A stretch of DNA of 64,000 nucleotides from Paraphysomonas bandaiensis (GCA_965644295.1 CBFFRP010000218.1:62001-126000); one strand, 5' to 3'; positions 12,883 through 64,000 are shown, counted from the stretch's first letter. The notes: a model not told the origin generated them from the sequence alone. Program-made: numbers and translations.

Positions 12883-13129
12883 AAAGACTTTCAATAATAC
12901 AAGACACCGAATTGTCGAACGTCGTCTGGGCGGCAATGCATAACGCTGCTTTCGAAACGGTAGTCGTAAAGATGCAAAGTGGCAACAAAGTTTCACTTAC
13001 CCGGACGGAGACTTCTTTATGCTCAATGGGGACGAAGAAGGTGGTGACAGTGAGAGTCGAGTACAGAATGACAACAAAATGCAAACTTAGATTCATGGTA
13101 ACAGACAACACGGAAGAGTGCATATCTTA

Positions 13130-25800: not shown

Positions 25801-28800
25801 TTTTAGAGTTTGAAGCTCACTCTTGATTTTGATGATATCGTTGTTTAATTTGGCCACTTCTTCTTCATAAACGTCTTTTTGTTGACTTAGCGAATGAACT
25901 GTCGCCCTCAACTCCGCACATTCTTGTTCTAGCTTATATGAATCAGTTTTTGTTACCTCATTCAATGCATCTCGCTGATTAATCTCGGTCTGCATGTACA
26001 TTAGCCTGTCTTGGAGTTTCTGAACTTCATCGTTATGATTATTTTGAATATTTTCTTTGTCCAAGTCAAACTCTGAAAGCTTCTCAGCGAGCTGCACTTT
26101 TTCCAAGACCACCGCATTGTACTCTTCAGTCTTACGTTCAAAATCAGTTTTCATTAGCTCAATGGTTTCCAATAATTTCGCTTGTGCTTCAACGAGCTCC
26201 ACTACAGAGCACTTTTTCTCTTTTAACTGCTCTGAGACTGAGTCTAACTCAGTTTTCAAAGACTTGATCTCCTCTTGAAGTGCTGCCCGATCTTCCATAA
26301 GATCGAATTCTCTATTGCAGTGTAATGTAACATTCGCCTCGTCGAGTTCAGATTTCAGTTGGGCATTAGCTTCTTCTGAGACTTTCAACAATTCATTCAA
26401 GCGGTTAATCTGAGATTCCATCTCTTGCTCAGTCTCACTCGCTGCACTCGACTCGATATCCAGCTTTTCCTGTAGATCTTCAACCTCGTCGGTCTTTTCA
26501 TCCAAAGCCAATTGCAGTCGGTGGACTTCAGACTCCAGAAACTGCACCCGTTGCAATTCAACGGATGTATCGGAGTGATCCTGATTCTGCCGAGAAGAAC
26601 CACCTTTAAGAGATTTAATTTCCTCTTGCAACCCCGAATTCTGTTGTTTGAGCGTTTCGATCATTATATGGAGTTCCTCCGTGTCACTTTCAGAGCATTC
26701 TCTGTGGGTGGAAATCTTTGAGATCGTCGCTTGGACCGATTCAGACTGCTCCTTTATCGAGGATAGCGTAGACTTTATAGTTGGCTGGAATGATGTGTCG
26801 CCCATTCCAACTCCAGGGCACCTGCGACAACCAAAAAACATATGTAAGAGCAGCACATAACATGCAACATCAGCGCATACCCAAAACTACACTTAAAACA
26901 GCATTTGTAATTCAATACATAGCATATACAGCTATTACCAAGTGTCTCGTTTGGTCTTTCGTTTCTTCTTCTTGAACACTTCAGTATCGTCTATCTGACA
27001 AAATTCATCACTTGGTACATCTGCGACACCAGAAAACAAGAGCCCTCGTAATCGCTCAAGTTTGGCCTAAAAACGATAAATACAATTACACATGCAATAT
27101 ATATTACACATGGAAACCTTTTGTTCGTCCTTCTCACACTCCAGACTTTCCAGTCTCTTAAGTAATTCATTTCTTTCTGCCTCTAGAGCACCTCTCTCAC
27201 TTTCAGAGAGACCAACAGCACTCTGTTTTTCTTTCAATTCGTTTAATTCTTTCGTTAGGCGCTTAATCTTCGCACTCTCATCAAGAATCTCATTTACAGT
27301 GGCGTTGGTTTTGACAAGCTTGGCTCGAGAGGCAAACTGAAGTGTCGACCTTGTTTCTTCAACATAGCTACAGAAATGTAACAGTTACTCGGGAAGAATG
27401 CATACACATGAATAAACTCATGTACACGTGCGTACCGTTCAGCAGCAGTTACGCAGCACACGATAGACATTTTTGCATTCCCTGACAGACTCGGCTGCAA
27501 GAGTCTAGTCAACTTGCTGTCTCTAAAAGACACATGCTGTCCAGGCTGACTGAGCGCATGAATGACGCGACTCAGAGAGAGCAGAGATTGATTAATTTTA
27601 CCGCCCTCTTTTGCACGTTGACCTAATTTTAAGTTAAGAGTAAGTGAAGCAATGCACAAGTGAACTCATTAATAGCACTGCAAAATAGCAATAGATCTAT
27701 TTGTAGTACAATTATTATTTGCATTGATATGTACAGTAGCTGGAGAATGTAGGTTCTATTTTACCTGTAGCTCCCGTGTGTCGAACAGACTCTGACCCCG
27801 CCAGATCTACAAGGTTAAGTGCCGAGACCCACACTGCCATATCTCTTTCAACGCCGTTACGTTGCGACTCAATACTCTCAACGGTTAACCTGAATAAATG
27901 GTAGGTTAGGGAGGTGAGTATAGTATAACACGATGAACAGATAACAAAAACAAATATTAATCAGCAAGTAACACTGTAAATGTATATTCTCACTTGAATA
28001 TAGTATGAGATCGACTCGACGTATCATTCATGGCGGTGGATTCAACGCTGCGTTTAGAGCATCCTGGAAAGCACATCATAAGATGGAAATTAGAAACAAC
28101 TATACAGAGAACATTCAAACAGATATACCTTTCTGCACAGCTTTCATAATGCCATCAAAGTCTCCAATGACATGTTCGGTCGCTTCACAGTAAACGCCTT
28201 TTCGTGGATCTTCTCTGATGGCCACAGTATTATCAGATGCATCAGATAACAGATCTCTGATTATCTATGACAAAAAAAGATAAATGAGATGGTTATCTTC
28301 TAAAATGTAGGACAAATCGTGATAATACCTCGTTATATATTTCCACAAACGATACACGAACAATAAAATCTCTGTCGTTGCGCTCAGCCATGTAATGAAA
28401 GAGATCCGTAGATGCCAAATCTAGGACACCCTTTGCTTTCTCGCCTCCACCCAACATAGTAAAAGTTTTTCCAGAAGATGTTTGTCCATCTATAATAAAA
28501 TATCTATTAAATATATCATCTTATTAATATATATGTCTTTTTACATGCAAATATTGTCCCATTTATCCCATTCACGACTCCTTTTACAATATTTGTACCG
28601 GCATATTCATACACATCTTTAGTAGTTGAATTTTCATCAAATACTTTATCATAATGATGAATTTGTCCATCTAATGGTTGTCCATCTGATCTTAATTGAG
28701 TAACTGCATTGTGCTAATAGTAATAGTTAGATAAGATACATATGTGTATAATCATGTATATATATGTATGTATGTGTCTATATATAACATAACACTCTAT

Positions 28801-31464: not shown

Positions 31465-31714
31465 TTTTGTAGTGATTAATAATAAAAATATTGACTATTT
31501 CTATCAAAACACTAGCTGCACTTCTCTGGGAGTATATCGAATTGTTATGTACCTCTGAAATAAGAGTATCGAAGCGACAGAATATACATATGTGAATGTT
31601 GTCTAGCTTATAACATAGTGGACACATCTCACACAAGTGAATAAGTACGATCACCTGTCCTATATAGATCTGCAATAATATTCCGTATATTGTCACGAAT
31701 GCCGATAATCACTT

Positions 31715-31891
31715 AACTAAGTCGGACTCACACCTTTTCGTGGTGTCTTGGAGGATAAATACCGGAGATATTTATCCCGGAAACTAATGTGAGCCGCAGA
31801 TATTGTCAGCAGATATTGTTCTACCTACTCATAGCTCATATAGCTATGGTACAAGGGACACTAATTAGTGTCACTTGTGTTGACGTCTTGG
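31715..31891 (-). mobile_element. Dispersed repeat family, partial copy
   Basis: AGTCGGACTCACACCTTTTCGTGGTG...GGAAACTAATGTGAGCCGCA...GGACACTAATTAGTGTCACTTGTGT matches the 56569 copy. Confidence 0.8.
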
Positions 31892-32603: not shown

Positions 32604-32846
32604 ATAAGTCGTGGTGTTCTGGGGAATAAGTACCAGAGAGAATTTTTCTTGATAAAAAGTCTCTCGTACTAACGTAAGCTGCTTTTGTAGACTGAAGATT
32701 ACTTTCTCCCCACTCAAAAGAGACACAATTTCGTATTTCGTGTATATAAATAAACAGGTATCCAAGAAGAGGCCCACCTCAAGAGTATCCATGCATGTTG
32801 GGCTGCCTGCTAAAGTCAAGTATCCGGTATCCGGGGTGAGTTCCAC
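32604..32846 (-). mobile_element. Dispersed repeat family, internal fragment
   Basis: TCGTGGTGTTCTGGGGAATAAGTACC...GGCCCACCTCAAG...TTGGGCTGCCTGCTAAAGTCAAGTATCCGG matches the 56569 copy. Confidence 0.75.
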
Positions 32847-40867: not shown

Positions 40868-41278
40868 AGTAGTGAATGTCTGATTTTCAGCAATAGGCGT
40901 GTAAGAGTCAGAACTAATGTAGCAAAGCAATTTAACTAACTAGTGTTTAACTCTGATATCCTACTATTCTGCACTTCAAACGCTGCTTGTGCGACCACTT
41001 CCTTTTCCTTAAGGTGAACTAGCCCGGATGATTGACTTCAGTAGACAGCCCGGATGCCCTTGAGGTGGGCCTATTCGTCAAGGCTCAAAGACGTCTATAC
41101 AAGTGACACTTATAAGTGTCCGTTTTATCATACAAACATTTGGCTATGAGTGGACAGAAAGAGAGTTATCTTCGGTCTATGTTTGCGGTCCACGTTAGTT
41201 TCCCAGAGAAAGTTTCCTGGAGAAATATTTCTATCCTTCAGAACACCACGAAAAGGTGCGAGCCCGACTTTGTTGAGG
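40868..41278 (+). mobile_element. Dispersed repeat family, near full-length copy
   Basis: AGTAGTGAATGTCTGATT...CACCACGAAAAGGTGCGAGCCCGACTTTGTTGAG. Confidence 0.85.
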
Positions 41279-44363: not shown

Positions 44364-47300
44364 ATGTCTAGAATATGTAAAGCAGCATGTGAGGGTGATC
44401 TGAATGCAGTGAAGGAATATGTTGAGAGAGGCCTTACCAACACACAAGATAAGGTAACAGACACACACATACACACATACATACACACATACATGTATAT
44501 ACACATATGCTTATAGGGTCATGCTATACACACATACATGTATATACACATATGCTTATAGGGTCATGCTATACACACATACATGTATATACACATATGC
44601 TTATAGGGTCATGCTATACACACATACATGTATATACACATATGCTTATAGGGTCATGCTATACACACATACATGTATATACACATATGCTTATAGGGTC
44701 ATGCTATACACACATACATGTATATACACATATGCTTATAGGGTCATGCTATACACACATACATGTATATACACATATGCTTATAGGGTCATGCTATACA
44801 CACATACATGTATATACACATATGCTTATAGGGTCATGCTATACACACATACATGTATATACACATATGCTTATAGGGTCATGCTATACACACATACATG
44901 TATATACACATATGCTTATAGGGTCATGCTATACACACATACATGTATATACACATATGCTTATAGGGTCATGCTATACACACATACATGTATATACACA
45001 TATGCTTATAGGGTCATGCTATACACACACATATACATATATATAGACAGACATACATATATATAGTGGGTATCATGACTGTTTATATTCATTTATAGAC
45101 ATATATCGTAATTGTTCATATGTATAAGTAGAGTGTGTTTTTATTGTGTGGGCTGATATACATATATATAGTGTTGCATGCTATGAGCTCATGTGTATAT
45201 ATGTGTGGTGTTGCACTACAAGGGCACTTACATTATTATTGTTTAATAGAAAGGATGCACAGCTCTTCACTATGCTGCCTCAAAAGGTCACAGAGATATA
45301 TCCAAGTATCTATTGGGTGCTGGAGCAGATTGTAATATACAAAATAATGTAGGTATCCCTATATATGCCCCCGCATCCGTACATTTCCGCATTTGCATAA
45401 GGCCTCATATACTTAATATGTGTGTATAGTGTAATGTCTAAAGGTTAATATACTGTTACTTTATAGAATGGAATGACAGCTCTGCACTGTGCTGCCTCAA
45501 AAGGTCACAGAGATATAGCCGAGTATCTAGTGGGTACAGGAGCAGATTATAAAATACAAGATAATGTAAGCCCCATATATATATCTGTACATATCTAGTG
45601 CTATATCGTATGGGCTCATATAATTGTGGTTTTGCATTGTCAAGGCTCGTATATATATATATATGTATGTAGCGCAGTGTTAAAGGGTTCTTATATTGCT
45701 ATTCTTTATAGAATGGAATGACAGCTCTGCACTGTGCTGCCTCAAACTGTCACAGAGATATAGCCGAGTATCTTGTGAGTGCAGGAGCAGGTTATAATAT
45801 ACAAGATAATGTAAGCCCCATATATATATCTGTACATATCTAGTGCTATATCGTATGGGCTCATATAATTGTGATGTTGCATTGTCAAAGCTCGTATATA
45901 TATATATGTATGTAGCGCAGTGTTAAAGGGTTCTTATATTGCTACTCTTTATAGAATGGAAGGACAGCTCTACACTGGGCTCTTCCCAAAGGTCACAGAG
46001 ATATAGCCGAGTATCTAGTGAGTGCAGGAGCAAATTGTAATATACAAGATATTGTAAGCAAACCTCACCTATCTAGCCCCATATATATATCTGTATATAT
46101 CTAGTGCTATATCGTATGGGCTCATATAATTGTGATGCTGCATTGTGAAGGCTCGTATACATATATATATATTTATGTAGTGCAGTGTTAAAGGGTTCTT
46201 ATATTGCTACTCTTTATAGAATGGAAGGACAGCTCTGCACTGTGCTGCCTCAAAAGGTCACAGAGATATAGCCGAGTATCTTGTGAGTGCAGGAGCAGAT
46301 TATAATATACAAGATAATGTAAGCCCCATATATATATCTGTACATATCTAGTGCTATATCGTATGGGCTCATATAATTGTGATGCTGCATTGTCAAGGCT
46401 CGTATACATATATATATATATGTATGTAGCGCAGTGTTAAAGGGTTCTTATATTGATACTCTTTATAGAATGGAATGACAGCTCTGCACTGTGCTGCCTC
46501 AAAAGGTCACAGAGATATAGCCGAGTATCTTGTGAGTGCAGGAGCAGATTATAATATACAAGATAATGTAAGCCCCATATATATATCTGTACATATCTAG
46601 TGCTATATCGTATGGGCTCATATAATTGTGATGTTGCATTGTCAAGGCTCGTATATATATATATATGTATGTAGCGCAGTGTTAAAGGGTTCTTATATTG
46701 CTACTCTTTATAGAATGGAAGGACAGCTCTGCACTGTGCTGCCTCAAAAGGTCACAGAGATATAGCCGAGTATCTTGTGAGTGCAGGAGCAGATTATAAT
46801 ATACAAGATAATGTAAGCCCCATATATATATCTGTACATATCTAGTGCTATATCGTATGGGCTCATATAATTGTGATGCTGCATTGTCAAGGCTCGTATA
46901 CATATATATATATATGTATGTAGCGCAGTGTTAAAGGGTTCTTATATTGATACTCTTTATAGAATGGAATGACAGCTCTGCACTGTGCTGCCTCAAAAGG
47001 TCACAGAGATATAGCCGAGTATCTTGTGAGTGCAGGAGCAGATTATAATATACAAGATAATGTAAGCCCCATATATATATCTGTATATATCTAGTGCTAT
47101 ATCGTATGGGCTCATATAATTGTGATGTTGCATTGTCAAGGCTCGTATATATATATATATGTATGTAGCGCAGTGTTAAAGGGTTCTTATATTGCTACTC
47201 TTTATAGAATGGAAGGACAGCTCTACACTGGGCTCTTCCAAAAGGTCACAGAGATATAGCCGAGTATCTTGTGAGTGCAGGAGCAGATTATAATATACAA

Positions 47301-49269
47301 GATAATGTAAGCCCCATATATATATCTGTACATATCTAGTGCTATATCGTATGGGCTCATATAATTGTGATGCTGCATTGTCAAGGCTCGTATACATATA
47401 TATATATATGTATGTAGCGCAGTGTTAAAGGGTTCTTATATTGCTATTCTTTATAGAATGGAATGACAGCTTTGCACTGTGCTGCCTCAAACTGTCACAG
47501 AGATATAGCCGAGTATCTTGTGAGTGCAGGAGCAGGTTATAATATACAAGATAATGTAAGCCCCATATATATATCTGTACATATCTAGTGCTATATCGTA
47601 TGGGCTCATATAATTGTGATGTTGCATTGTCAAAGCTCGTATATATATATATGTATGTAGCGCAGTGTTAAAGGGTTCTTATATTGCTACTCTTTATAGA
47701 ATGGAAGGACAGCTCTACACTGGGCTCTTCCCAAAGGTCACAGAGATATAGCCGAGTATCTAGTGAGTGCAGGAGCAAATTGTAATATACAAGATATTGT
47801 AAGCAAACCTCACCTATCTAGCCCCATATATATATCTGTATATATCTAGTGCTATATCGTATGGGCTCATATAATTGTGATGCTGCATTGTGAAGGCTCG
47901 TATACATATATATATATTTATGTAGTGCAGTGTTAAAGGGTTCTTATATTGCTACTCTTTATAGAATGGAAGGACAGCTCTGCACTGTGCTGCCTCAAAA
48001 GGTCACAGAGATATAGCCGAGTATCTTGTGAGTGCAGGAGCAGATTATAATATACAAGATAATGTAAGCCCCATATATATATCTGTACATATCTAGTGCT
48101 ATATCGTATGGGCTCATATAATTGTGATGTTGCATTGTCAAGGCTCGTATATATATATATATGTATGTAGCGCAGTGTTAAAGGGTTCTTATATTGCTAC
48201 TCTTTATAGAATGGAAGGACAGCTCTACACTGGGCTCTTCCAAAAGGTCACAGAGATATAGCCGAGTATCTAGTGAGTGCAGGAGCAGATTATAATATAC
48301 AAGATAATGTAAGTAAACACACCTATCTACCCCCACATGTATGCGTGTATAGATGTATGTACGGTGCAATATTATAATGACACCTATAGATGTAGCGCCA
48401 CCTTGTAGAGAATCATACATTTATATGTATGTACTGCAGTATTATAAGGGTTCACATATTATACCTATTAATAGGATGGAGGGACAGCTCTACATTGGGC
48501 TCTTTTAAAAGGTTACAGAGATATAGCCGAGTATCTATTGGGTGCTGGAGCAGATTGTAATATACAAGATAATGTAGGTACCCCTCTATATGTCCACCCG
48601 CGTGTGTACATTCTGCAATTGCATAAGGCCTCATATACTTAATATGTGTGTATAGTGTAATGTCTAAAGGTTAATATGCTGTTACTATTAAAATAGGATG
48701 GAAGGACAACTCTGCACTGTGCTGCCTCAAAAGGTCACAGAGATATAGCCGAGTATCTAGTGGGTGCAGGAATAGATTGTAATATACAAGATAATGTAAT
48801 AGTAACCCCACATGTCCACCTGCATGTGTACATTTCTGCAATGTCGTAATGGTCCATATACATAATATGTATGTGTATAGTGTAATATTATTAGGGCTCA
48901 TATATTGTTACTATTAATAGAAAGGAAGGACAGCTCTGCACTGGGCTCTTTTAAAAGGTCACAGAGATATAGCCGAGTATCTAGTGGATGCTGGAGCAGA
49001 TTGTAATATACAAGATAATGTAAGTAACCTCAGCCATCTAACCCACATATAGATGTGTGTACGGTGCAAAATTGTAAGGCCTCGTATATTTGTAGTGTTA
49101 CATTGTCAAGACTTATATACATATAATTATGTGTGGTTCTTATATTTTGTTACTATTAAAATAGGATGGAAGGACAGCTCTTCATTATGCTGCCTCAGAA
49201 GGTCATAGAGATATAGTTGAGTATCTAGTGGGTGCAGGAGCAGATTGTAATATACAAGATAATATGTAA
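44364..49269 (+). CDS. Ankyrin-repeat protein: N-cap exon plus 17 single-repeat 99-nt exons
   Basis: Exon 1 at 44364-44453 ([23 protein letters not shown]...QDK|GT). TAG|99 nt|GTA exons start at 45250, 45467, 45712, 45955, 46220, 46469, 46714, 46963, 47208, 47457, 47700, 47965, 48210, 48475, 48697, 48921 and 49165, each [33 protein letters not shown]. Ends ATG TAA at 49264-49269. Confidence 0.9.
44483..45030. repeat. 45-bp minisatellite, 12 copies, in intron 1 of the ankyrin gene
   Basis: GCTTATAGGGTCATGCTAT recurs every 45 bp from 44509 to 45004. Confidence 0.97.
45250..49263 (+). repeat. Tandem exon+intron array, unit ~220-265 bp, 17 units
   Basis: Introns as well as exons are near-identical in the central units; edge units are more divergent. 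Confidence 0.95.
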
Positions 49270-49352
49270 GTAACATGACCTATCTACCCGCATATATATT
49301 AATATATTTAATATATTAATGAAACTGATAATTTTTATGTGTTTATTGCCTT

Positions 49353-51686: not shown

Positions 51687-53197
51687 CGCGTATGTCCCAA
51701 TATAAAATATAAATAGCATCAATTTATATATGTGTTGAATATAATTCGCAGTGTATACCTTCCTTTTTCAATCCAAAGCCGCCATCAACGACATCTTCAC
51801 ATAGGCATTCCTCATTCGATATAGACCATTCACAAGGATTACATATTGGATCTTTAATAGTGACAGGAGACGAACAATGATCAGTTGACAATTTTTCTCC
51901 ATAATGACATGATTCGAAGGTGTTGAGTGATTTAATAGCAGAAGATGGTGCCTCTCGAAGCTTTCTCTGCACTGATTCAACAAAACTAAATGCAATTCAG
52001 ATTACTATACAGTATATCGTTTGCCATCATCATGTGTATATTGTATCCATATAGCATCATATTATATAGCCGTTTTTCACTATAAATATTGTACAATGTA
52101 CATATTAGTGTTCCGCAAAGTAACAGAAAGACTCTTATATGTACATCTAGTAGGATATATATACACATCTCAAAATGAATTGTAGTCGCGTATGAAATAT
52201 TTTTTAACTAATAATTGCTACAGTAACATACCGAATAGCATCCAGCAAATTCAAAAAAGAAGAATAGCTGGCTGACACTTCATTCAGAGTTCCATAGAGA
52301 GCGGATAGTACTATATAATATTGCATTATACTCTTGCACACTAACTCATGCTGCACTGGATAGAGTGCGATGTCCAATAAAGTATAAATGTGTTATACGT
52401 ACAAGCTTCACACTACCTGACGACACAACCTCTTTTTGAGCTCCCAACTCCCATCTGCAGACTATTTAGTATTGCACGACCAAGATAAAGTATTGTAGCG
52501 TAGAATATACGAGCTCATGTCATGCTACATCACCGACTTGATGTTGTTTCTCAGGTAAACGACTTGAGCTGGCTCCATTTTTCTTACGAATACAAGGAAC
52601 CTGTTCCAACAGCATAACTCTTGATACTCACAGCAATGTGTACTGTAGAATATACAGTATAACGTACATATCTATCCAATTAGTTGTGTCGCTTTCAATG
52701 TCACCACAGATGTGGTCATCGTTCATAACATTCGAGTCAGTGCTATGATATGATTGATAGGCCTCTCTATGTACAGGTGTGCCCTCAACAGTACATTGCT
52801 GACCATTACTATACAATTATATGAATATATTACACTCTATATCCTCATATAGCATCATACTTATAATATAAGATCTCTGTCATCTGATTGGCTGATAGTA
52901 CACCGGCTCTGTTATCTGATTGGCTAATAATGGACTGATCTCTGTGCCTTAAGAATAACACTGTATCTATAATGAGGTAGTTTGAAGAGATAAGAGGAGA
53001 ATACCGTCTCGAGATATCCCTTTATGAGTGTTGTTAAGGGTGTTGTGAGGAGTGTGACTGTGTGTTTGACTGTGTGTGTGGTTGTGAGAAGTTACACATG
53101 ATTTGATTGGATAAGAGGTCTTTCTTCTGATAGAAGAGATAGAGTGATGTGAAGAAGAGGGTTTGGTACGTTTCTTTGCTGTGGTTATCCAGTTCAT
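51419..53197 (-). CDS. Putative multi-exon gene of unknown function
   Basis: Minus-strand ORF pieces (53197 MNWITTAKKR..., 52816, 51972) with GT..AG introns and a last exon VEYFDIKQWNLFEEDLPNSVL*. No recognisable domain. Confidence 0.4.
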
Positions 53198-54077
53198 TGT
53201 AATGAGAGTGGTGTGTTAATATGTCTATGTATGTATGTATATGTGACATGTTTAAGTATTGCTAGAGATGTACATATATATACTATAGAAGTACATATAT
53301 ATAGTACATAGGTACATATATATATACTAATAGAGGCATAGATAGATATCTAGATATCTACTAGAGAAGTACATATATCTATAGAGGTACATATATATGT
53401 ATACATTATCACACTTCACTTCACTTCACTTCATGTGCCTTCAATACAGCAGTATGGTGTCTTATATACATATCTATAGTATGTTAACTACTGTAATAGA
53501 GGTATATGTATGTATGTATATGATACCACTGACTGATAGGATCACACTTCACTTCACTTTCCACTTCATATATCTACTTTCGTATACAATATCTGGAATG
53601 ATATACAGCATAGAAACCAATAATTTTTATATGCAATTTAGGTTGCTAGATACAAAAATACCCAGATTTTTATGACCCCAGTGTTTCTGCAAAGCCAACC
53701 TTGTACTGTACATGGATGGTTCAACAGCACCAGGAGTACACAACTACAGTGTACCTACCTACATCTAGAGCAGTACATACAGCTGTCCATATACCATATT
53801 TCACCACCCATAAAATCAAACAAATCATCCCCCTCTATCTCCTCTATCATCTATATGATTGGCTATTAATCCACCTCTATTACATACATATATATACACA
53901 TGCCTCACTGTGTGTTATATATGCATATATACATACAATCCTATCAACCAACTCACTCATCTGAATACCCCACCATCACTACTTAACTTCCATAGAAACT
54001 CTTCATCAATCACTCTTTATTCTCCTTTTACTTTCTCATTGTTCCGTTAAGCTCTAACGTAACTGTATCTCTCTGAA

Positions 54078-56128
54078 ATGTCTGTATATACATACATCTA
54101 TCTATACATATATATATATACAAATATATACACAGAATCATATATATACAACAATACATTCTCTGGTCTATACAATCCTGATCTACAATATAACATGGAA
54201 GCATATGGGGCTTCATGGTTAGCTCATAAATCACGTTTAATATATAAATATAACAAACTCAAAGATATGTATATATTTGAACAAGCTACACTATGGATTG
54301 TATTAGATCATGATGAACAAACACAAGCACAAAATGTTTTATTAACACGTGATTATTTAGATTTATTTGTTGAACATTTATCATCTACAACAAATCTATT
54401 ACGTTCACATGATATTGATTCGTATTTATTATTATCTATGAGGAGGAAGATACGGGCTTTAAAACATCATGCTTTATCACTAGATGGTCCTTTTCATGCA
54501 GATACTATTGCTATTATACCGTTCTCAACACGACATGCAGTTGGGAAGCGTAATGAAAACGTTATTGCTTTACAGAATATGAGATTATCGTTTTTCGAAG
54601 CCACATTCTGGTCTATTTACAGGTATGTGTAAGTTTAGTTCCCCGTTTTAGATTAATTTGACACTATATATTGCGTGATGTGTGGGATTTATATTATGAG
54701 TCAAAGTATTGCACATGTTGTATAGGATAAAGGACGATGAGAATCGCTCAAGTCAGTGAGAAATATTAATGGAATTCTGTTCAGCTTATGTATATACTAC
54801 ATTACACGTGTTCAATGAGCATTATATACTATAGTACTATGTAATGCAGTATATGCTTAGTTTCAGATGTTTTATACTTTGTTCTACACTTATTGGATGT
54901 GTCTTGAAGTTCATTATTACTTTATTATCCAGATACATCCGACATATTGCAGTAGGAGTATCGAACAAAGATGAACTAATCCGACTGAAAAAACTGGATC
55001 TCCCAATTTTCCATATATTCGAGGTTGGCGCTGTTTGAAATATACTGTTTTTATCTCGCTGTGATAATGTATGCTGAGAAGCTATAGTATATATTACATT
55101 TCATCAGCCACGATATACATCATTGAGACTGATGTGGTGTGTATTCGGATATATATACTTTCGGATGGCGCATATCTGATTACGCCACCATATTAAGTCC
55201 TCTTATCCTTTTATATCAGGTGATTGCATCTGAAAACGACCCACGGTGGGACTTGCCTAAAAGGCTTCTTTTGTCTTCGGCGGAGGCTTTAATGGGCAAC
55301 TATTCGGTCCCGAATATTTCTTCAGGGAACCCCAATTACTATCAACAATATCATCAAGCAGACGAGTCACATGGCAGCCTAAGCGCCAAATGGAAGGAGT
55401 TTAATTATGTGTATTACACAGAGAACGACCAAATTCTTCACATGAGGATGCACCGTACACTTCACGAATTCATGAAGTCCACGGAAGGACAGTTTATGAT
55501 GGTGCCACATAGAATGCAAGTGAGTATGAATTGACTGGATATTGTACATTTGTTATACCCACAAATTACTCAGTAGTTATTCAGTCATATATGTAATGTA
55601 TGCTTTACTGTAGACTCTACTTCTTCCTAAGAGTTTACCTAAAAAGTTACAGAGCTCCCTGACTATTGATTCTTGGCGCCGAGAAGTGTAAGATAACAAT
55701 CCACATGTTTACAATATTCAATGTCAATACATCGTGCACTACATTTATATGCATGTTTCATGGTTCTGTTTTCCTTGTCATGGATAATATCTCACGATGT
55801 TTCTTGTATCAGTCTTTCTGATGTGCACCTCACTATTGAGAACGCTACATCCCCGGTTGGCAGCTGCTGTGATAACGGTCGATATTATTTCAAATCATCA
55901 TGTGGTAACTTCTGGTATAATTGTGAAGATTGGGGTTTGAAAAACATGAAAAACTGGATGAAGTTTGGAAAATATGGGTTTTCTATGCCACAAACCACTG
56001 AACATTTAGGTAGATGCGAGTATAGTCCAGTCAGGAAGTACTGTCCTATCCCACCCAACTGCAAATATAGAATACCCAGGAGTATATCAGATGGGTGTTG
56101 GGAAATTCAAAACGTATCATCGATATAG
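54078..56128 (+). CDS. Multi-exon protein, possibly glycosyltransferase-like with a Cys-rich tail; true start uncertain
   Basis: Exons joined by GT..AG: TIAIIPFS...FEATFWSIYR|YIRHIAVGV, WKEFNYVYYTENDQILHMR...VPHRMQ, and GSCCDNG...CGNFWYNC. Confidence 0.6.
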
Positions 56129-56221
56129 TGTTACTAAAAATAAATAAGTTTTCCGACATCTCTGTGTTGTATTGCTCGGACATCCGTTAAACTAAATAAA
56201 ACATTCACACTTCTGTCGCAC

Positions 56222-57170
56222 CAAGGCTGCGTAACAATTAATTGAATTGCATATAATTGCAATTAAATTGCATGGAATATATGAAATAATTGCAATTTAC
56301 TGTAATTGCTTGCTGGAAAGTTGCAATTAATATCAATTATTTACAATTTTGTATAAGGATATATTAGAATTAGCATTTGGAAAACATTAAGGACGACTTG
56401 TTGATTTTTTTGCTTAGTTTCTACACAATTAGTAGTGGAGTAAATATGCTTCAAGCAGCGGTACGTAATGCTTTGGTCGTGCGAAGTTGCTTTTGTTCTT
56501 GGTGCGCTTGGTGTCTCTCATCAGTGAGTCGACACCATCACATTCTTTTTCCTCGTCTTCATCATGATCTCTCAACATAGTGGACTCACACCTTTTCGTG
56601 GTGTTCTGGGGGATAACCGGAGATATTTTTTGGGAAACTAACGTGAGCTGTATATATAGTCAGTAGATATTGTTCTGCCCAATCATAGCCAAATGTTTCT
56701 GTGGTACAAAGGACATTAATTAGTGTCACTTGTGTAGACATCTTTGAGCCTTGACGAATAAACAGGCATTCGGGAATGGGCCCACCTCAAGGGCATCCGG
56801 GGTATTGGGCTGCCTACTGAAGTCAAGCATCCGGGCTGTTCGCCATACGAAAAGAGAACGAAAGTGGTTGCACCTTGGTCCTTGTGGTGACGCACAAGCA
56901 ACTTTCGTAGCGTAAAAAAGTAGTAGGATATCAGAGTTGAGCTCTCAACAAAGTCGGATTAGCACCTTTTCGTGATGTTCTGGGGAACAAGTACCGGAGA
57001 GATTCTCCTACTAATTGTTTTTGCTACGTTAGTTCTGACCCTTACACTCCTATTGCTAATAATCAGACATTCACTACTTCTTCATCGTGATGATGGCCAT
57101 AATAGAACCTGAGATGTGTGAAATCTATAACATTTGAAATTTAATTACAAGTAATTGTTACGCAGTCCTG
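56222..57170. mobile_element. Non-autonomous hAT-like DNA transposon
   Basis: TIRs CAAGGCTGCGTAACAATTA and TAATTGTTACGCAGTCCTG; 8-bp TSD TGTCGCAC (56214-56221) / TGTAGCAC (57171-57178); subterminal AATTGC repeats. Confidence 0.8.
56569..57078 (-). mobile_element. Dispersed repeat family, full-length copy nested in the hAT element
   Basis: CTCTCAAC...CATTCACTACT flanked by TCTTCATCATGAT (56556-56568) and TCTTCATCGTGAT (57079-57091). An internal second copy of the terminal ~65 bp sits at ~56942-57008. Confidence 0.85.
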
Positions 57171-57275
57171 TGTAGCACAATATGAATATATATCTCCTGT
57201 TCAACGCAAAGTTGAAAAGGATACTTCCCACTTAAGTGTGTTGTAGTCGAATTGTGTATTGCGTTTGTATTACCC

Positions 57276-57343
57276 TATATATTGATATACGGGGACTCTG
57301 TGACACTTTTAGTGTCACATAGTTCCCCATATATCAATATATA
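57276..57343. repeat. Near-perfect ~32-bp-stem hairpin
   Basis: TATATATTGATATACGGGGACTCTGTGACACT-TTT-AGTGTCACATAGTTCCCCATATATCAATATATA. Confidence 0.9.
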
Positions 57344-57558
57344 CCCCTTCCATCAATTTATAGGCGATAGCACTTCCTGAAACTTGGTGGGAGCACATAC
57401 CGAAAGAAGGGTGGTTCAGTCAAGGTTTTGGTAAGTGTCAACAACTGCAAAGCGTTTTTCGAAGTCGATTTCTAAGGTTCCCCCACTGTGTAAATTAACC
57501 GACATTGAATAATCCGTGGGTGTGAATTCACGTGACGTACGAGTGTCACAGAATCCCC
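57291..57558. mobile_element. Candidate 268-bp MITE (PIF/Harbinger-like termini)
   Basis: 17-bp TIRs GGGGACTCTGTGACACT / AGTGTCACAGAATCCCC (1 mismatch), with TAC immediately outside both ends. Confidence 0.55.
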
Positions 57559-57669
57559 TACCATAATTTGTGTGGGTGACACAGAATTACAAGATCGCAA
57601 TTTACCCGGAAAATAAATTCGTTTAATTTTCCTCGGATTATTTTCTTAAAACTATAATAAAAACAAAAG

Positions 57670-57996
57670 ATGGAAAATTTCATTGTGTACAAAATTACCG
57701 GAACGCATACAAATAAAACATATTATGGAAAAACAATGCTACCTGTAGAAGAACGCCTTTCCCTTCAGCTATCATCTTATAGACACCACAAAGAGACATA
57801 TTGTTTATCACCCTATCTCCCAGTTTTTGATATAATTCGAGAAAATAATAATAGCGATATTAAAATTACAATATTGACACCTGGTTCAACTAATTATTTC
57901 AATAATGCAACAGCAATCGAGAAACACTATATTGAACACAAGATAAAAACTGTTGTAATAAAAATGGATCAGATTATACCATGGAGGAATATCTGA
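57670..57996 (+). pseudogene. GIY-YIG endonuclease, frameshifted duplicate
   Basis: FIVYKITGTHTNKTYYGKT...EERL...AIEKHYI. Two extra nt near 57936-57940 shift it out of the DKNCCNK frame kept in the 58101 paralogue. Confidence 0.75.
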
Positions 57997-58100
57997 TAGA
58001 ATATTCAGAAAAACACAGTGAAATTAATAAATGAAACGTGAGAAATATACCCGGAAAATAAATTCAGATTATTTTTTCTTAACTATAATAAAAACAAAAT

Positions 58101-58520
58101 ATGAACAATTTCATTGTATACAATATTACCGGAAAGCATACAAATAAAACATATTATGGAAAAACATCGCTACCTGTAAAAAAGCGTCTTTCCCTTCATC
58201 TATCAGCTTATAGATTTTACAAAGAGTCATATGGTTTATCTTCTTATTTCTCAGTTTTTGATATATTTCGAGAAAGCAATGATCTTAAAAGCGATATTGA
58301 AATTACAATATTAACACCTGGTTTAAGTAATTACAATGCAGCAGCAATCGAGGATCACTATATTCAGCGTGATAAAAACTGTTGTAATAAAAATAGATCA
58401 GGTTTTACCACGAGCAACATGAAGGTATATCAAAAAGATTATTGGGAAAAACATAAAAATAAAATTAATAAAATGAGACGTGAGAAATATGCTCAAAATA
58501 AAAAATCTTGTGTACATTAA
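58101..58520 (+). CDS. GIY-YIG family endonuclease (viral type)
   Basis: IVYNIT..TNKTYYGKT, KKRLSLH (Arg), AIEDHYI (Glu), NCCNK (Asn) and a basic tail YQKDYWEKHKNKINKMRREKY. Confidence 0.8.
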   Translation: MNNFIVYNITGKHTNKTYYGKTSLPVKKRLSLHLSAYRFYKESYGLSSYFSVFDIFRESNDLKSDIEITILTPGLSNYNAAAIEDHYIQRDKNCCNKNRSGFTTSNMKVYQKDYWEKHKNKINKMRREKYAQNKKSCVH

Positions 58521-58524
58521 AAAC

Positions 58525-58789
58525 ATGGAAAATAAAAAACGCGGACGACCCATAAAATATAACTCCGAAGAAGAGCGAAAGCAAGCAAAGCGGTTACAAG
58601 ATCAACTTTCATATAGACGAAGAAAATCACAACAGAATGAAATTTTAGAAATACTATCTAATAATGGATCATCATCATCGATTTATGAACCCTCGGAAAC
58701 TGGAACACCAGTGTACACAAATACAGAAATCCGTCAAGAAGAGATAAAAATTGAAATTTACTCGGATAATTTTAATTTGTGTTTGAATA
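58525..58789 (+). pseudogene. Small basic DNA-binding-like viral protein interrupted by the LTR element
   Basis: MENKKRGRPIKYNSEEERKQAKRLQDQLSYRRRK (AT-hook-like plus basic helix). The frame runs into the left LTR at NLCLNK. Confidence 0.65.
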
Positions 58790-61698
58790 AGTTGAAGTGT
58801 AAACTTCGCTTCCGTAGTTTTCCTATCACATACGCACTACGTATTATGAATGAATGGATAGTATGTCACATGCATGCATATCCATTCATTGTCATCACAC
58901 ATTGACATGTTTACATCAGTTGTCCTTAACATATAATATACCTTTCTCCTCTAAAGTACTTCATACTTTAACTTGGTAGCAGATGGTTACGATAACCAAC
59001 CTATTTATTTGTTTGTTCGCCTCCACATCACTGGTGGAATGACGGCATCAACATATGAAACAAGCCTGTCATCTGTACACAGACGAAATACACAACCTGC
59101 TTCCTTTGAACTCTGCTGTTTCTCGAAAACTCGAAAATCCGGGGGTTTTGGAATCAATTTCCGGAAAATATGTACCTTTTTGTTAAAACTCGGAAAATCG
59201 TTTTTTTAAGAGGATATTTCCGGGTACTATGCATTTTTTTGGGCACTGAAAACGAATCGACAGTCTGTCTGTTCCTTGTTTGAGCTCCTGCAGTGTGTAA
59301 TATATGACTTTAAGGAGATGACAGTGTATACACTAATGCACATGTCCATTCCAGTCAATCTGATTTTGATGACTTGTCTCCACCATGTGTGCTGATTTTG
59401 ACACCTTGAGACGCTTTGTCCGGTGATACACCAGGAGTGGTTAGACTTCACGTTGATGGCTGTGAATATTCTTTCGATGACTACTATTCGCCTTCTCAGG
59501 GAGTCAACCCTGCAGAAAGAGATCACATATGAGCTATATGTCAGCCTCGCACAGCAGTTGTGCTTGAGAGCATGGATTCTCTTCTCTTTATTCAACGAGA
59601 GTAGTTATTTATAAAGAGTTCGACGATGATGATTGCTTTATCTTATCCACAAGGGTTTCACTGTGCACCAGCTTGTACTCCAATATGTGTTCCCAGAGGA
59701 TGTTGCTCTGTTCGTCAGCAGCATATATATATTATATGGATCATTATCTTCGTCTGCTTCTTTCTCTGGTGATGTATCAGATATAATGGTTATACACCAT
59801 TTGTTGCTGCTCTGTTTGGCGTATAATGTATATCGGCTTACAGTAGAGCACTTCAATCAGGACTTATGTCTTTATATTTATCTATATGATGAATTATTGA
59901 GTGCTGATCTCTTCCGTCCAGTATATATTATGGTTGAGAGCAGTATCCCCTCCCAATATTGTGATATCTCAGGACATGTATAGTTATATGGTTCTAGATA
60001 CTACGGATGTTCAATTCATTCAGCATTCTTTTACCTTTCCAAGCACGGGAGCGGATTCATGATGAGTCCGATGATGAACTTGTACAGGAGGAGGATACCG
60101 ACGGGAATGATCCCTCCATACAGTGTCACGAACCCGATGTTATTGTGCATGACGAGAAATCTGTTGGAGCAGCCAACGAGCCAGCTACCTCAGAAATCGC
60201 GTTACAGCCGGCTCCCGATGTGGTCCCTCAGACTGACGGTCGCTCCATCGAAGTCTATTGTTGAAGGAGCTCGTATACCTCCCGACGATGATTCGGTTGA
60301 GAGAACAGTTCTCCTCTCTATATATTATAGTGTTACCTCAGGATATAGTTAATAGTCCTGTTGAGTTCACTTGACGTGTCGACAGACTCCCCGCATAGGG
60401 CACAGCAGTCGGATTCACAGTCATATTATTGCCGCTCATTAGCAGGCATCTTATATTCAAATGGTACAGCCCCTCATTGGTAAGGCAGGCATATCAGTTC
60501 ATTGCCCCCTATACAAGGCAGGCATATCATATATCAGTTTATTGCCCCCTATTTATGGCAGGCATATCATATTTTAGCCCCTTATCATTATAAAAGGCAG
60601 GCATATATATCTCTTTTATTTCCACTAGTATGGAATAGTGCTGGTTTTGTTCCACAGGTAGAACAGCCTCACAATCAGAGTTTTAACTCTGCTGCCCTAT
60701 TATAGAGGCACTGATTATCTTAATCTGCATTGCGCACTTTCATGCGATATATGCAATGATCAGTTCAGCGTTTGTATTTTACCTGGTCCTATAGTCCAGT
60801 GATTTAATATGTTTTATCTGTTCTTTCATTGTTGTCATGTAGACATTCAACAGAAAACATTTCCATATTATGCTGTTCATGATTTTCAAGCATTTCAAGG
60901 TGACAGGTATACAATACTATATTGATTATAATCATTAAGATTCACCTGTTATGCATTATCTATCTTATATTCTGATGTATCATACTTATGATATGAGCAT
61001 TAAAATGGTATCTATGATATTATTCTATATATTTTGTTTGTCTAACCATTTCAGGCAATATTAAAAGCATAATATATTCGATTCAATCCTTCATCTACTG
61101 CGTATGAACTTCGTGTCTTGCTATAGCGTGGATTGATTTGCTTTGAAGTTTGTGTTTGACTTCTTCAGAACTATAGTGGTTCTACGATACGATGACCGTT
61201 GTGTTCATAATATCAGTATATATATATATACATATATTATATATATATACATGTCATTACCTATATATTATATTAGTGGGAGTGTATGACTCGTAGATGG
61301 TATGCCCCATCTGGTCCTCTGCACACACTATATCTTATAGTTATGGTATATATATTCTATTGTTGGATACTTTCCCTTTTGTTTTCCCATGCATCCATCA
61401 TACCATAATGGTTTTCTTTTCGGGTTTTCAGTATCTATTCTATTTTCAGTATCTAGCTTAGTACCTAGTTTTCATGTTGTCCATTACATACGTACGCTTA
61501 GTTTTAGGGGGAGAGTTGAAGTGTAAACTTCGCTTCCGTAGTTTTCCTATCACATACGCACTACGTATTATGAATGAATGGATAGTATGTCACATGCATG
61601 CATATCCATTCATTGTCATCACACATTGACATGTTTACATCAGTTGTCCTTAATATATAATATACCTTTTCTCCTCTAAAGTACTTCATACTTTAACT
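58790..61698 (+). mobile_element. Non-autonomous LTR retrotransposon, 2.9 kb
   Basis: LTRs at 58790-58973 and 61514-61698 differ by 1 substitution and 1 indel, with AGTT..AACT termini. PBS TGGTAGCAGA at 58974; PPT AGGGGGAG at 61506-61513. No intact pol seen. Confidence 0.92.
58974..58993 (+). promoter_or_regulatory. Primer-binding site, tRNA-iMet type
   Basis: TGGTAGCAGATGGTTACGAT directly after the left LTR resembles the complement of the initiator tRNA-Met 3' end. Confidence 0.75.
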
Positions 61699-61994
61699 AA
61701 ATGTTATTATAGTAAATATTACAACAGTATACACTACATTTTTTACAACATTTTTTATTAAAAAAAATATTATTTAACAAAAAAAGTTTGTATATAATAT
61801 ATTTCAAAAAAAAGTGTCAAAAAAAATGCAATCAAAATAAAATAATACTATACATATTAACCCCAGCGATCAACCGACCCTATTAACAAACGATAGACCA
61901 ACCCTGACTTAAACACCGAACAACTACAACAGATAGACGGAACAATAGACCTAACTACCCTATATATAGACATGCCGTGATTTTACTCCCTATT

Positions 61995-62033
61995 TTACAT
62001 ATGTAAGAATATAAAATAATAAAAAAATATATA
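61995..62033 (+). promoter_or_regulatory. Putative viral promoter motif (second copy at 62455-62495)
   Basis: TTACATATGTAA.AATATAAAATAAT.AAAAAAATATATA is repeated upstream of ORFs 62100 and 62509. Confidence 0.55.
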
Positions 62034-62099
62034 AATGCTATTGATAAACTAACGTTTTAAAAACATTATAGAATTATTTTTTTGTAATGAGACATTATA

Positions 62100-62429
62100 A
62101 TGTCAAAGGCCGAAAGTAATAAATTTTTCTTTATGGAAATGGAAGGTAAAATTTTTAGTGTTAAACGTGATCACAAAACAAACGTACAGGACGAAATAGA
62201 ACAAGGCAAAAAGGAAATGAACATTTTAATAGATAAACAGAATAGCATAAAAGAAGAATTATTAAAACTTAACAATAAAATAAGTGATAAAAAAATGTCT
62301 TTGTTAACAAAGAGGCAGCTATTAGAATTATACCGCGGCAAGAGACGCATACCGTGCTTGAATTTATTCAAAAAAAATGTTACCGATGTTTATATTGATG
62401 ATGACACAGACAGCGACGAGGACTATTAA
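62100..62429 (+). CDS. Viral coiled-coil hypothetical protein (paralogue A)
   Basis: 109-aa intronless ORF with ATTATAATG start context; aligns by eye with 62509. Confidence 0.75.
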   Translation: MSKAESNKFFFMEMEGKIFSVKRDHKTNVQDEIEQGKKEMNILIDKQNSIKEELLKLNNKISDKKMSLLTKRQLLELYRGKRRIPCLNLFKKNVTDVYIDDDTDSDEDY

Positions 62430-62508
62430 CAACAATTTAAATTTATTTCAATTATTACATATGTAAAAATATAAAATAATTAAAAAAAATATATAGTTAT
62501 ATATTATA

Positions 62509-62793
62509 ATGAGTGAGTATTTATTAAAGTTGAAAGGTGAAGTATACAGTATTAGAAAAACGCATATGCCTAAAATTCAGGAAGAGATAAGAAATTTAGA
62601 CAGAGAAATAGAAGACATGAAAATTACATTATCAGAACTTCAAAAACAAAAGAAAGAGTTACAAGTAGAGCTATTAAATGAACGGCAATTAATCATATAT
62701 GAAAATAAGGACGAAGATAAAAGGACTGAATTATTAAGAAAATATGATTTTCTACACGGTGAATATCGCAGTGATTCTGTAGGATGGAAATAA
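62509..62793 (+). CDS. Viral coiled-coil hypothetical protein (paralogue B)
   Basis: 94-aa ORF; LKGEVYSIRKTH/IQEEI/LLNERQLI vs MEGKIFSVKRDH/VQDEI/LLTKRQLL. Confidence 0.75.
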   Translation: MSEYLLKLKGEVYSIRKTHMPKIQEEIRNLDREIEDMKITLSELQKQKKELQVELLNERQLIIYENKDEDKRTELLRKYDFLHGEYRSDSVGWK

Positions 62794-62829
62794 AATATTA
62801 TAATAATATAAATATATGCTATTATTATA

Positions 62830-63276
62830 ATGCCACACACAGATATAAAATATTTCATATGTTGTGAAAATGTTGATGATGAAGCAAAAGGTGAATGCGT
62901 GGATGATAACGATATAATATATAAACATCGTGATTGTTCTGACTGCAAAAAGCATAAATTAAGTAAAACAGTTGATGAAGTTCAGGATGTAATACACAGA
63001 CGTTTTAAAAAACGTTTTGATGTCGCTATGTTACATTATCCTTATGAATTTTCTACATTTTTAAATAATTGTTCAGAACAATATATTAACGATAATAATT
63101 TAAAAGAAAGAAAAAACGAAGTTATTACCAAAGATGGCCGTTATTTATGGGATAAACTCTTAAATGCAATTGAATACATCATAGAAAACGACGGAAATAA
63201 AAGAAAAATGAAAACAAAAAAATGGAAATATTCATTAAATGTTGTTGACAAACTAATGGATGATGATGATGATTGA
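62830..63276 (+). CDS. Viral hypothetical protein with Cys-rich N-terminus
   Basis: 148-aa ORF with ATTATAATG start and CC...C...CSDC. Confidence 0.75.
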   Translation: MPHTDIKYFICCENVDDEAKGECVDDNDIIYKHRDCSDCKKHKLSKTVDEVQDVIHRRFKKRFDVAMLHYPYEFSTFLNNCSEQYINDNNLKERKNEVITKDGRYLWDKLLNAIEYIIENDGNKRKMKTKKWKYSLNVVDKLMDDDDD

Positions 63277-63294
63277 TAAACTGATAAGGTAAAT

Positions 63295-63337
63295 TAAGGG
63301 ATAAAAACGCGATAATTGTTCGCGAAATTATCCCTTA
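63295..63337 (+). terminator. Hairpin downstream of a viral ORF (second copy at 63458-63500)
   Basis: TAAGGGATAA-AAA-CGCGA-TAATTGT-TCGCG-AAA-TTATCCCTTA. The terminator/polyadenylation role is inferred. Confidence 0.45.
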
Positions 63338-63540
63338 GATGTAAAATATATAAATATATTATGTGATATACTTATATATGGTGAATATCGCAGTGATTCT
63401 GTAGGATGGAAATAAAATATTATAAAAAAATGCAATTGATAAACTGATAAGGTAAATTAAGGGATAAAAATGCGATAATTGTTCGCGAAATTATCCCTTA
63501 GATGTAAAATATATAAATATATTATGTGATATACTTATAT

Positions 63541-63756
63541 ATGGACGGCCTAGAATGGGAAATAGACTATGATAATTATGAATTTCCAAAGAAAAATGTT
63601 ATAGACTTAGACAAAGTAATTAACTTAGACACACCAAAATTAAACAGAAATAATAATATAGATACAGTCATGTTGACTTATGATTTTGCAAATATAAATA
63701 TATCTGATAATGTTAATGGAGAAAATACAGATTGTTCTAAACAGCAAGACAGCTAA
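63541..63756 (+). CDS. Short acidic viral hypothetical protein
   Basis: ATG at 63541 (MDGLEWEIDYDNYEF...); overlaps the next ORF by 41 nt. Confidence 0.45.
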   Translation: MDGLEWEIDYDNYEFPKKNVIDLDKVINLDTPKLNRNNNIDTVMLTYDFANINISDNVNGENTDCSKQQDS

Positions 63757-64000
63757 TCAATACCTAAATAATAAAACTACTGATTGTATTTTTATATTAC
63801 CGAAGATAGACGTTAAACGACGTCATAAAGCCTATATATCAGTAATTGATGCCTCTATCCCATATTCATTTTATAATGTTAATTCAACCAATAACACACT
63901 GAATTATACATTAAATAGTATTCCATATTCACTTACAATTACAAAAGCCAATTATAATATTAGAACTTTAATAAGTTATTTACAGTCCAATTTAGAGCCA
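63716..64000 (+). CDS. Minor capsid (penton)-like protein of Polinton-like viruses, 5' part
   Basis: Manual translation open to the window edge: MEKIQIVLNSKTANQYLNNKTTDCIFILPKIDVKRRHKAYISVIDASIPYSFYNVNSTNNTLNYTLNSIPYSLTITKANYNIRTLISYLQSNLEP. The A.IPYSFYN(I/V)N..NN and TI...NYN motifs match my recollection of PLV minor capsid proteins. Confidence 0.7.
   Translation, partial: MEKIQIVLNSKTANQYLNNKTTDCIFILPKIDVKRRHKAYISVIDASIPYSFYNVNSTNNTLNYTLNSIPYSLTITKANYNIRTLISYLQSNLEP

What the first reader, a model, noticed from the sequence alone, without database searches (positions are those of the whole stretch)
57600..64000. Endogenous Polinton-like virus integrated in the host chromosome
Seen: an abrupt change from intron-rich host genes to very AT-rich, intronless, closely spaced + strand ORFs with shared upstream motifs. 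These include two GIY-YIG ORFs, a KRGRP basic protein, several orphans and a capsid-like ORF at the edge. Known: PLVs and Mavericks carry major and minor jelly-roll capsids, a packaging ATPase and often GIY-YIG genes, and they integrate widely in protist genomes. Inference: this is the left arm of a possibly undescribed endogenous virus, partly decayed (one frameshift, one LTR insertion).
Basis: partly seen in the sequence, partly recalled or inferred. Interest (0 to 1): 0.85.

Follow-up and report, generated by a model that had tools for sequence, protein, structure and literature searches.

The report
Retrotransposon-broken endogenous Polinton-like virus
A protist chromosome carries the vertex-capsid gene and several accessory genes of a small DNA virus, split by a gene-less retrotransposon that likely fused two pieces that were not neighbours; such broken viral copies are a well-known and ordinary part of protist genomes.

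Summary
The Polinton-like virus (PLV) call holds. ORF 63716-64000 is the start of a minor capsid (penton) gene: 99% identical to a 243-aa protein whose model matches mavirus, Sputnik and PBCV-1 vertex proteins. Its closest relatives lie between an A32 ATPase and a double jelly-roll capsid gene. Three corrections. (1) Repeated DNA starts near 57277, at a 68-bp hairpin, not at 57600. (2) The LTR element (58790-61698, no coding remnants found) has no target-site duplication, and another copy runs on after 58789 into sequence absent from the window. It therefore likely joins two non-adjacent pieces rather than sitting in an intact arm. (3) The ATPase, just upstream of the penton in the three closest loci, is absent from the 2 kb upstream here. 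Contig depths suggest many copies in a stramenopile host. No read bridges the host junction by 31 letters, and the major capsid gene lies outside the window. Endogenous PLVs with nested retrotransposons are published. New member of a known kind; PLV group not assigned.

The parts
57276..57343 (.). 68-bp imperfect palindrome at the left edge of the repeated DNA; likely part of a terminal region
   Evidence: DNA fold -22.7 kcal/mol, z -8.7, 0 of 200 shuffles as good; strongest 90-nt fold in 52000-64000; contigs of X6, X12 and X13 start at 57277-57280
57277..57669 (.). Non-coding lead-in with repeats of a 12-17 nt motif; putative left terminal repeat
   Evidence: D1, D2, I2; above host depth in X1, X6, X7; partner repeat not in the window
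57670..58034 (+). GIY-YIG gene 1, frameshifted near 57935-57942 in this copy
   Evidence: full-frame 119-120 aa homologues P0035, P0070-P0072
58101..58520 (+). GIY-YIG gene 2, 139 aa, intact; tandem duplicate of gene 1
   Evidence: PF01541 E 3.2e-5; 97% to P0034; 78% DNA identity to copy 1
58525..58789 (+). Small basic KRGRP protein, cut at its 3' end by the LTR
   Evidence: no relative in viral contigs
58790..61698 (+). Non-autonomous LTR retroelement: LTRs 58790-58973 and 61514-61698 (AGTT...AACT), TGG primer site from 58974, purine tract 61506-61513, no target-site duplication
   Evidence: LTRs 98.9% identical, no TSD at 3-8 bp; 0 Pfam families in 6 of 6 frames read through stops; far above host depth
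61699..62099 (.). AT-rich non-coding stretch, as deep as or deeper than the penton gene in most runs; possible terminal or origin region
   Evidence: tables 2, 4; no cover in X13 for 61700-61930
62100..62429 (+). Orphan coiled-coil ORF, 109 aa; likely paralogue of 62509; skipped in other copies
   Evidence: 25% identity, E 2e-5; joints 62062/62069 to 62440; exact protein in ENA
62509..62793 (+). Orphan coiled-coil ORF, 94 aa; on the common path to the penton
   Evidence: exact protein on 19 ENA contigs; X12 joint 62757 to 63380
62830..63276 (+). Orphan ORF, 148 aa; skipped in some copies
   Evidence: 2 relatives among 1.84 billion representatives, 66% and 42%; joint 62757 to 63380
63272..63544 (.). 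Local duplication (110 bp twice, plus a 60-bp copy of 62750-62809) with a hairpin in each 110-bp copy
   Evidence: D3, D7, I5; hairpin z -4.4 as RNA
63541..63756 (+). Small conserved ORF, 71 aa, which sits between ATPase and penton in the closest relatives
   Evidence: 47-54% to ORFs of L008, L009, L010
63716..64000 (+). Minor capsid (penton) gene, first 95 codons; predicted 243 aa, running off the window
   Evidence: DUF5901; 99% to P0001; fold matches; tree

Best explanation
The region holds the penton gene and accessory genes of a Polinton-like virus in the chromosome of a stramenopile protist, and this copy is likely a defective rearrangement in which one LTR retroelement now joins two pieces that were not adjacent. 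Shown: the penton, its neighbour ORF and their synteny with capsid cassettes; an LTR element without target-site duplication; another copy continuing differently after 58789; a frameshift that other copies lack. Inferred: the hairpin at 57276 marks the left terminal region; two copies of the same LTR element, inserted at two places in viral DNA, recombined and removed several kilobases between them, likely including replication, integrase and possibly ATPase genes; the 148-aa gene and major capsid gene should follow the penton at about 64.5 and 65.0 kb. By established PLV biology the intact family integrates with an rve integrase or tyrosine recombinase, replicates from terminal inverted repeats and packs DNA with an A32 ATPase into a double jelly-roll capsid with pentons at the vertices, in some cases only during giant-virus infection. 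This copy would need sister copies for those functions but could still supply capsid proteins.
For: Penton: model pLDDT 87.3; Foldseek best hit mavirus penton 6g41, E 3.8e-10; VIA-align Z 15.4 (rmsd 6.9, 230 aligned, a PBCV-1 capsid chain), 12.1 (6.6, 229, mavirus penton), 10.8 (6.5, 227, Sputnik chain N). Relatives L008-L010 at 60-71% show ATPase (Pox_A32, E 1.9e-11 and 2.7e-9), small ORF, penton, 148-aa gene, major capsid; the L010 capsid model matches iridovirus and PBCV-1 capsids at E about 5e-17. 7 fetched loci of 16.4-19.7 kb carry inverted repeats of 114-653 bp from their first base; rve in L003 and L045. L011 (68%) runs from viral GC about 0.32 into a kinase gene at 0.41-0.51. Repeated status: in X7 host contigs are at depth 96.5-100.9, the GIY block at about 540-970, the penton at about 2,880-3,540. 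Join: no TSD; X13 record 9 has 205 unmatched letters behind 58789; X3 record 17 has 462 unlaid letters, inferred to lie on the same side; 0 of 11 joints link 58789 to 61699; the loose end has 0 matches in the window. GIY-2 cluster members lie on ENA contigs of up to 5.8-7.3 kb (4 of 5 members), the penton cluster on contigs of at most 3.3 kb (7 of 7).
Against: The GIY block has no sequence link to this virus family: best E 0.054 against 819 ORFs of the 58 loci, 0 relatives in viral contigs. It is 2-25 times shallower than the penton, with a ratio that differs between runs, and its start-codon context differs from the right-hand genes. The host junction is crossed by only 12 letters (X1 record 5, 57051-57288), short of the 31 needed, and X1 may be the source sample. 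No listed piece spans either LTR junction. Summed contig depth is not a copy number. The common path 62069-62440-62757-63380 shows that many copies lack an ATPase just upstream of the penton, so its absence there is not caused by the LTR alone. Major capsid, integrase and right repeat are not in the window.
Confidence: 0.6

Rival explanations
1. Two different elements: the hairpin, GIY-YIG pair and KRGRP gene are the end of another repeated element or another virus, and the penton-bearing PLV begins right of the LTR, with 61699-62099 as its own terminal region. LTR recombination or nested insertion brought them together.
For: Different depth and depth ratios; different start context; no homology of the GIY block to 819 ORFs of related loci; separate ENA contig sizes; 61700-62060 is deeper than the penton in X3 and X12, as a two-copy terminal repeat would be.
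Against: Optional ORFs 62100 and 62830, which are linked to the penton, are as shallow as the GIY block. GIY-YIG genes occur in related genomes (L003), and L041 has near-terminal hairpins beside an inward-pointing KGRPK gene. X13 lacks cover at 61700-61930.
Confidence: 0.2
2. Assembly chimera: the assembler crossed from one locus to another inside the high-copy LTR element, so the two flanks are real but never joined in the cell.
For: No TSD; the LTR family is very deep and its contigs collapse into a loop (joint 61667 back to 58943); no piece spans the junctions; published endogenous viruses show assembly artefacts (PMC10120064, passages).
Against: Host contigs of X1 match the window with 0 other letters; the two LTRs differ at only 2 places and the interior carries its own variants; the window has no N. 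None of this tests the join itself.
Confidence: 0.15
3. One reading: one intact left arm into which an LTR element simply inserted, perhaps with a small deletion that erased the duplication.
For: All genes are on the + strand, AT-rich and intronless on both sides; the LTRs are nearly identical, as after a recent insertion.
Against: At least 205 letters (X13) and probably 462 (X3) that follow 58789 in other copies are absent from the window; 0 of 11 joints show the empty site.
Confidence: 0.05

Closest known systems
Endogenous Polinton-like viruses of protists, including chrysophytes (Bellas et al. 2023, PMC10120064; passages read)
   Same: Repeated, AT-rich, intronless viral DNA in a stramenopile genome; penton and capsid cassette; retrotransposons nested in or near the virus.
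   Different: This copy is cut and likely deleted; its capsid lineage could not be matched to a named group with the supplements searched.
Unnamed PLV lineage of loci L008-L011 (JACKZZ01 contigs, Ga0070754_10011126) and IMG/VR genomes L003, L004, L045, L047, L048
   Same: Penton 60-71% (closest) and 37-42% identical; the small ORF before the penton is shared with L008-L010.
   Different: There the ATPase ends 226-375 bp before the penton; here DNA similarity to L010 stops at the ATPase stop codon and orphans take its place.
Cryptophyte and ochrophyte PLVs with nested retrotransposons (PMC12220804; passages and section 7 read)
   Same: Standalone GIY-YIG genes; LTR-type insertions that disrupt viral genes.
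   Different: In the passages read the nested elements carry reverse transcriptase; this one shows no coding remnant and no TSD.
Endogenous mavirus-like elements of Cafeteria with Ngaro insertions (PMC8547959; passages read)
   Same: Nested retroelements and recombination between viral elements; penton fold.
   Different: Those are virophages with tyrosine-recombinase retrotransposons; capsid sequences here gave 0 PDB sequence matches at E 1, mavirus and Sputnik included.
Gossevirus (GKS1) group (PMC7805220, passages; bioRxiv 10.64898/2026.06.19.733378, parts 1-4 of 5)
   Same: Stramenopile hosts; lipase, integrase and endonuclease genes occur in relatives.
   Different: The one GKS1 capsid sequence seen shows no likeness by eye to the capsids of these loci; no cysteine protease among the 30 proteins scanned.

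Membership tests
Polinton-like virus | Minor capsid (single jelly-roll penton) | tested here: met
   the fold was run on P0001, 99% identical over the 95 residues in the window
Polinton-like virus | Double jelly-roll major capsid gene | not testable with these tools
   Outside the window, no genome held. Present 552-570 bp after the penton in 3 of 3 closest loci with both flanks.
Polinton-like virus | A32-like packaging ATPase | tested here: inconclusive
   No tblastn hit in the 64-kb window; upstream of the penton in 24 of 28 loci at 35% identity or more with 1 kb or more upstream (L041 and L042 are one contig); may lie downstream of the window
Polinton-like virus | Replication gene (pPolB or helicase fusion) and integrase | tested here: inconclusive
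   None in the window at E under 0.05 with 13 seeds; helicase, primase and rve genes in relatives
Polinton-like virus | Terminal inverted repeats and target-site duplication | not testable with these tools
   Right end outside the window; left edge located at about 57247-57280; repeats of 114-653 bp in 7 relatives
Endogenous viral element | Physically joined to host DNA | tested here: inconclusive
   Contiguous in the window; X1 contig crosses by 12 letters only; X7 host contig also stops at 57276 without a long loose end; no raw or long reads offered
Gossevirus (GKS1) | GKS1-type capsid and cysteine protease | tested here: inconclusive
   Eye comparison with one printed sequence only; HMM profiles not available
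Virophage (Virophaviricetes) | Virophage-type capsid and cysteine protease | tested here: inconclusive
   Capsid profile A2 gave 0 PDB sequence matches at E 1; fold hits rank NCLDV capsids above Sputnik and mavirus
LTR retrotransposon | Paired LTRs, primer site, purine tract | tested here: met
   that the primer site fits initiator tRNA-Met is recalled, not tested
LTR retrotransposon | gag-pol genes | tested here: not met
   0 Pfam families in 6 of 6 frames: non-autonomous
LTR retrotransposon | 4-6 bp target-site duplication | tested here: not met
   0 of 6 lengths (3-8 bp) and 0 of 21 shifted boundaries match

The most novel reading that the evidence does not exclude
A high-copy, gene-less LTR element acts as portable homology that splices PLV arms together in this host, and the dominant PLV form has lost the otherwise conserved ATPase-penton linkage and swaps optional orphan cassettes at that site. 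This would be a direct mechanism for PLV module shuffling, in a capsid lineage that may have had no known host.
Probability: 0.15. Interest if true: 0.6.

Novelty: new member of a known kind. Interest (0 to 1): 0.3.

Why it matters
Modestly. It ties an unnamed PLV lineage, whose near-identical proteins are known only from unnamed ENA assemblies, to a non-oomycete stramenopile host, and gives DUF5901 a clear penton fold. It also shows a copy apparently rearranged at a nested LTR element, one way such viruses could decay or exchange modules. Endogenous PLVs, their many copies and nested retrotransposons are all in print.

Tried and rejected
No whole genome, so nothing beyond 64000 was read. Scans for closer loci: genome contigs 0 of 237 candidate stretches; viral contigs 0 relatives for GIY-2 (12 and 97 candidates), KRGRP (53), ORF 62509 (9) and ORF 62830 (105). 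ESM Atlas gave no result. NCBIfam: no match above a curated cut-off for 10 proteins. Rfam: 2 sub-threshold hits, one being the hairpin itself; rejected. Group assignment by searching supplements of PMC10120064, PMC7805220 and PMC12220804 for contig ids and short capsid motifs found no match; one file was cut when stored, and the HMM set of the 2026 bioRxiv framework could not be seen and bears directly on this. A BFVD hit to Tetraselmis viridis virus S1 had the highest identity of the 50 rows (21%, rank 23): a weak lead only. 'DUF5901' is in 0 papers of the library. My first hairpin script missed the window's own hairpin, so its blanks are void; the second found best folds near an end in L041, L048, L052 and L055, 4 of 9 loci. 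A Helitron 3' end was considered from recall and dropped: no CTRR after the hairpin on the minus strand. The seed label 'YR' was my guess; Pfam did not confirm it for L044 or L048. Gaps in cover (X3 57311-57541, X13 57773-58465 and 61700-61930) prove nothing. Tables were cut (183 joints, 1,338 loose ends, 19,628 pieces not shown), as were loose ends (63) and pieces (484). Earlier findings: none. Host genus: a chrysophyte is my recalled guess; no call confirmed it.

Full report
Observation. The interval is not one AT-rich block: a 2.9-kb element of host-like GC (0.383) separates a left block (0.291) from a right block (0.257). Host genes upstream are intron-rich. A Tudor-SN exon has oomycetes as its only named relatives (43-50%) and unnamed proteins at 55-63% as the closest; in a tree of 27 rows (26 of 28 hits kept by length) it groups with five unnamed rows (98/94) apart from the 12 named oomycetes. 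The host is therefore likely a non-oomycete stramenopile. The stretch is held by runs under 4 organism labels and by marine metagenomes.

The capsid gene. ORF 63716-64000 hits DUF5901 above cut-off and has 20 relatives among 78 candidates, nearly all 219-245 aa, the best 99% identical. The model of P0001 (25-row alignment, pLDDT 87.3) matches the mavirus penton best by Foldseek (E 3.8e-10; Sputnik, PBCV-1 and adenovirus vertex chains follow). VIA-align gives Z 15.4, 14.1, 12.1 and 10.8 for two PBCV-1 chains, mavirus penton and Sputnik chain N, against 6.6 for the first non-capsid row. This is a penton.

Its family. Scans gave 7, 33 and 21 loci (58 distinct). The closest, L008-L010 (60-71%), read ATPase, small ORF, penton, 148-aa gene, major capsid; Pfam confirms Pox_A32, and Capsid_N above cut-off for L010 and below it for L008. 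The L010 capsid model matches double jelly-roll capsids. Window ORF 63541 is the homologue of that small ORF. More distant complete genomes are 16.4-19.7 kb with inverted repeats and carry rve, lipase, helicase or primase and GIY-YIG genes. L011 passes from viral DNA into a kinase gene of higher GC about 3 kb after the capsid gene, as an integrated copy would. I could not name the PLV group.

What differs here. The ATPase ends 226-375 bp before the penton in 3 of 3 closest loci with upstream DNA, and lies upstream in 24 of 28 loci at 35% identity or more with at least 1 kb upstream; in some distant loci it lies downstream. The window has 2,017 bp of viral-type DNA before the penton and no ATPase trace. 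Joints in other runs skip ORF 62100 (62062/62069 to 62440, runs X1, X3, X6, X7, X12, X13) and ORF 62830 (62757 to 63380, X12), so copies vary in orphan content at this site.

The LTR element. LTRs of 184 and 185 bp are 98.9% identical, with a TGG primer site and a purine tract at the expected places, and no Pfam family in 6 of 6 frames. No target-site duplication exists at 3-8 bp or with shifted ends. In X13 a contig follows 58516-58789 and then has 205 letters that lie on nothing in 57080-64000; an X3 contig stops matching at the same base with 462 letters left over; 0 of the 11 joints link 58789 to 61699, and the loose end is nowhere in the window. The flanks were thus not one insertion site. 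Recombination between two LTR copies explains this simply (inference); a second element or an assembly jump remain possible.

Left end and copy number. Contigs of X6, X12 and X13 begin at 57277-57280, and X13 has 77 other letters before it; host-depth contigs of X1 and X7 end at 57288 and 57276. A 68-bp hairpin sits here (z -8.7). In X7 the GIY block is about 5-10 times and the penton about 30 times host depth; in X1 about 3-14 and 90 times. The tool warns that these depths are not copy numbers, so I take only 'repeated'. No piece bridges the host junction by 31 letters, and X1 may be the source sample. GIY gene 1 is frameshifted here but whole in 4 of 4 members of its cluster, so decay is specific to this copy.

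How it likely works. Established knowledge (PMC10120064 passages; bioRxiv 10.64898/2026.06.19.733378 parts 1-4 of 5): PLVs share a capsid module of major capsid, penton and A32 ATPase, swap replication and integration genes freely, reach tens to thousands of copies per protist genome, and some replicate only with a giant virus. Inference: this copy cannot excise or replicate alone but its capsid genes may still serve sister copies. The GIY-YIG proteins are likely nucleases; their role was not tested. Nested retrotransposons in PLVs and virophages are reported in PMC10120064, PMC12220804 (passages, section 7) and PMC8547959 (passages). Search listings seen.

Verdict. A real endogenous PLV fragment, about 95% sure for the penton-bearing block; about 60% for the specific LTR-deletion history. 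New member of a known kind, interest 0.3.

Noticed in passing
window 56411-57212; related copies at 5535-5873, 12707-13609, 31705-31889, 32749-32827, 40868-41277: A very high-copy dispersed repeat (summed depth over 1,000 times host in X1 and X7) lies just left of the viral edge; no Pfam hit in 6 frames.
   Followed up: partly
window 63295-63337 and 63458-63500: A hairpin follows the stop of ORF 62830 and precedes ORF 63541 (z -4.4); recalls hairpin transcript ends of mimivirus and Sputnik (recalled). The 62430-62508 spacer has none (z 0.26).
   Followed up: partly
window 55721-56128: 135-aa Cys-rich ORF with a hydrophobic N-terminus, possibly a secreted host protein; no Pfam hit.
   Followed up: no
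window 23071-26886, minus strand: Long acidic coiled-coil frame with a 135-bp (45-aa) tandem repeat at about 97% identity.
   Followed up: no
window 45142-49299: Tandem array of about 240-bp units, 70-85% alike.
   Followed up: no
window 3-806, minus strand: F-box-like start followed by 29-aa ankyrin-like repeats; family names recalled.
   Followed up: no
L001, L002, L041, L042 (one IMG/VR contig); L049, L050: These IMG/VR contigs are long perfect palindromes, likely assembly or amplification artefacts that double the genome length.
   Followed up: partly
L023:4789-8739: 1,316-aa protein with an HNH domain inside an SF1-type helicase.
   Followed up: no
L047:12904-16365: Replication protein with a Herpes_ori_bp match (E 1.1e-18) in a 17-kb genome with inverted repeats and no integrase found by my seeds.
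   Followed up: no
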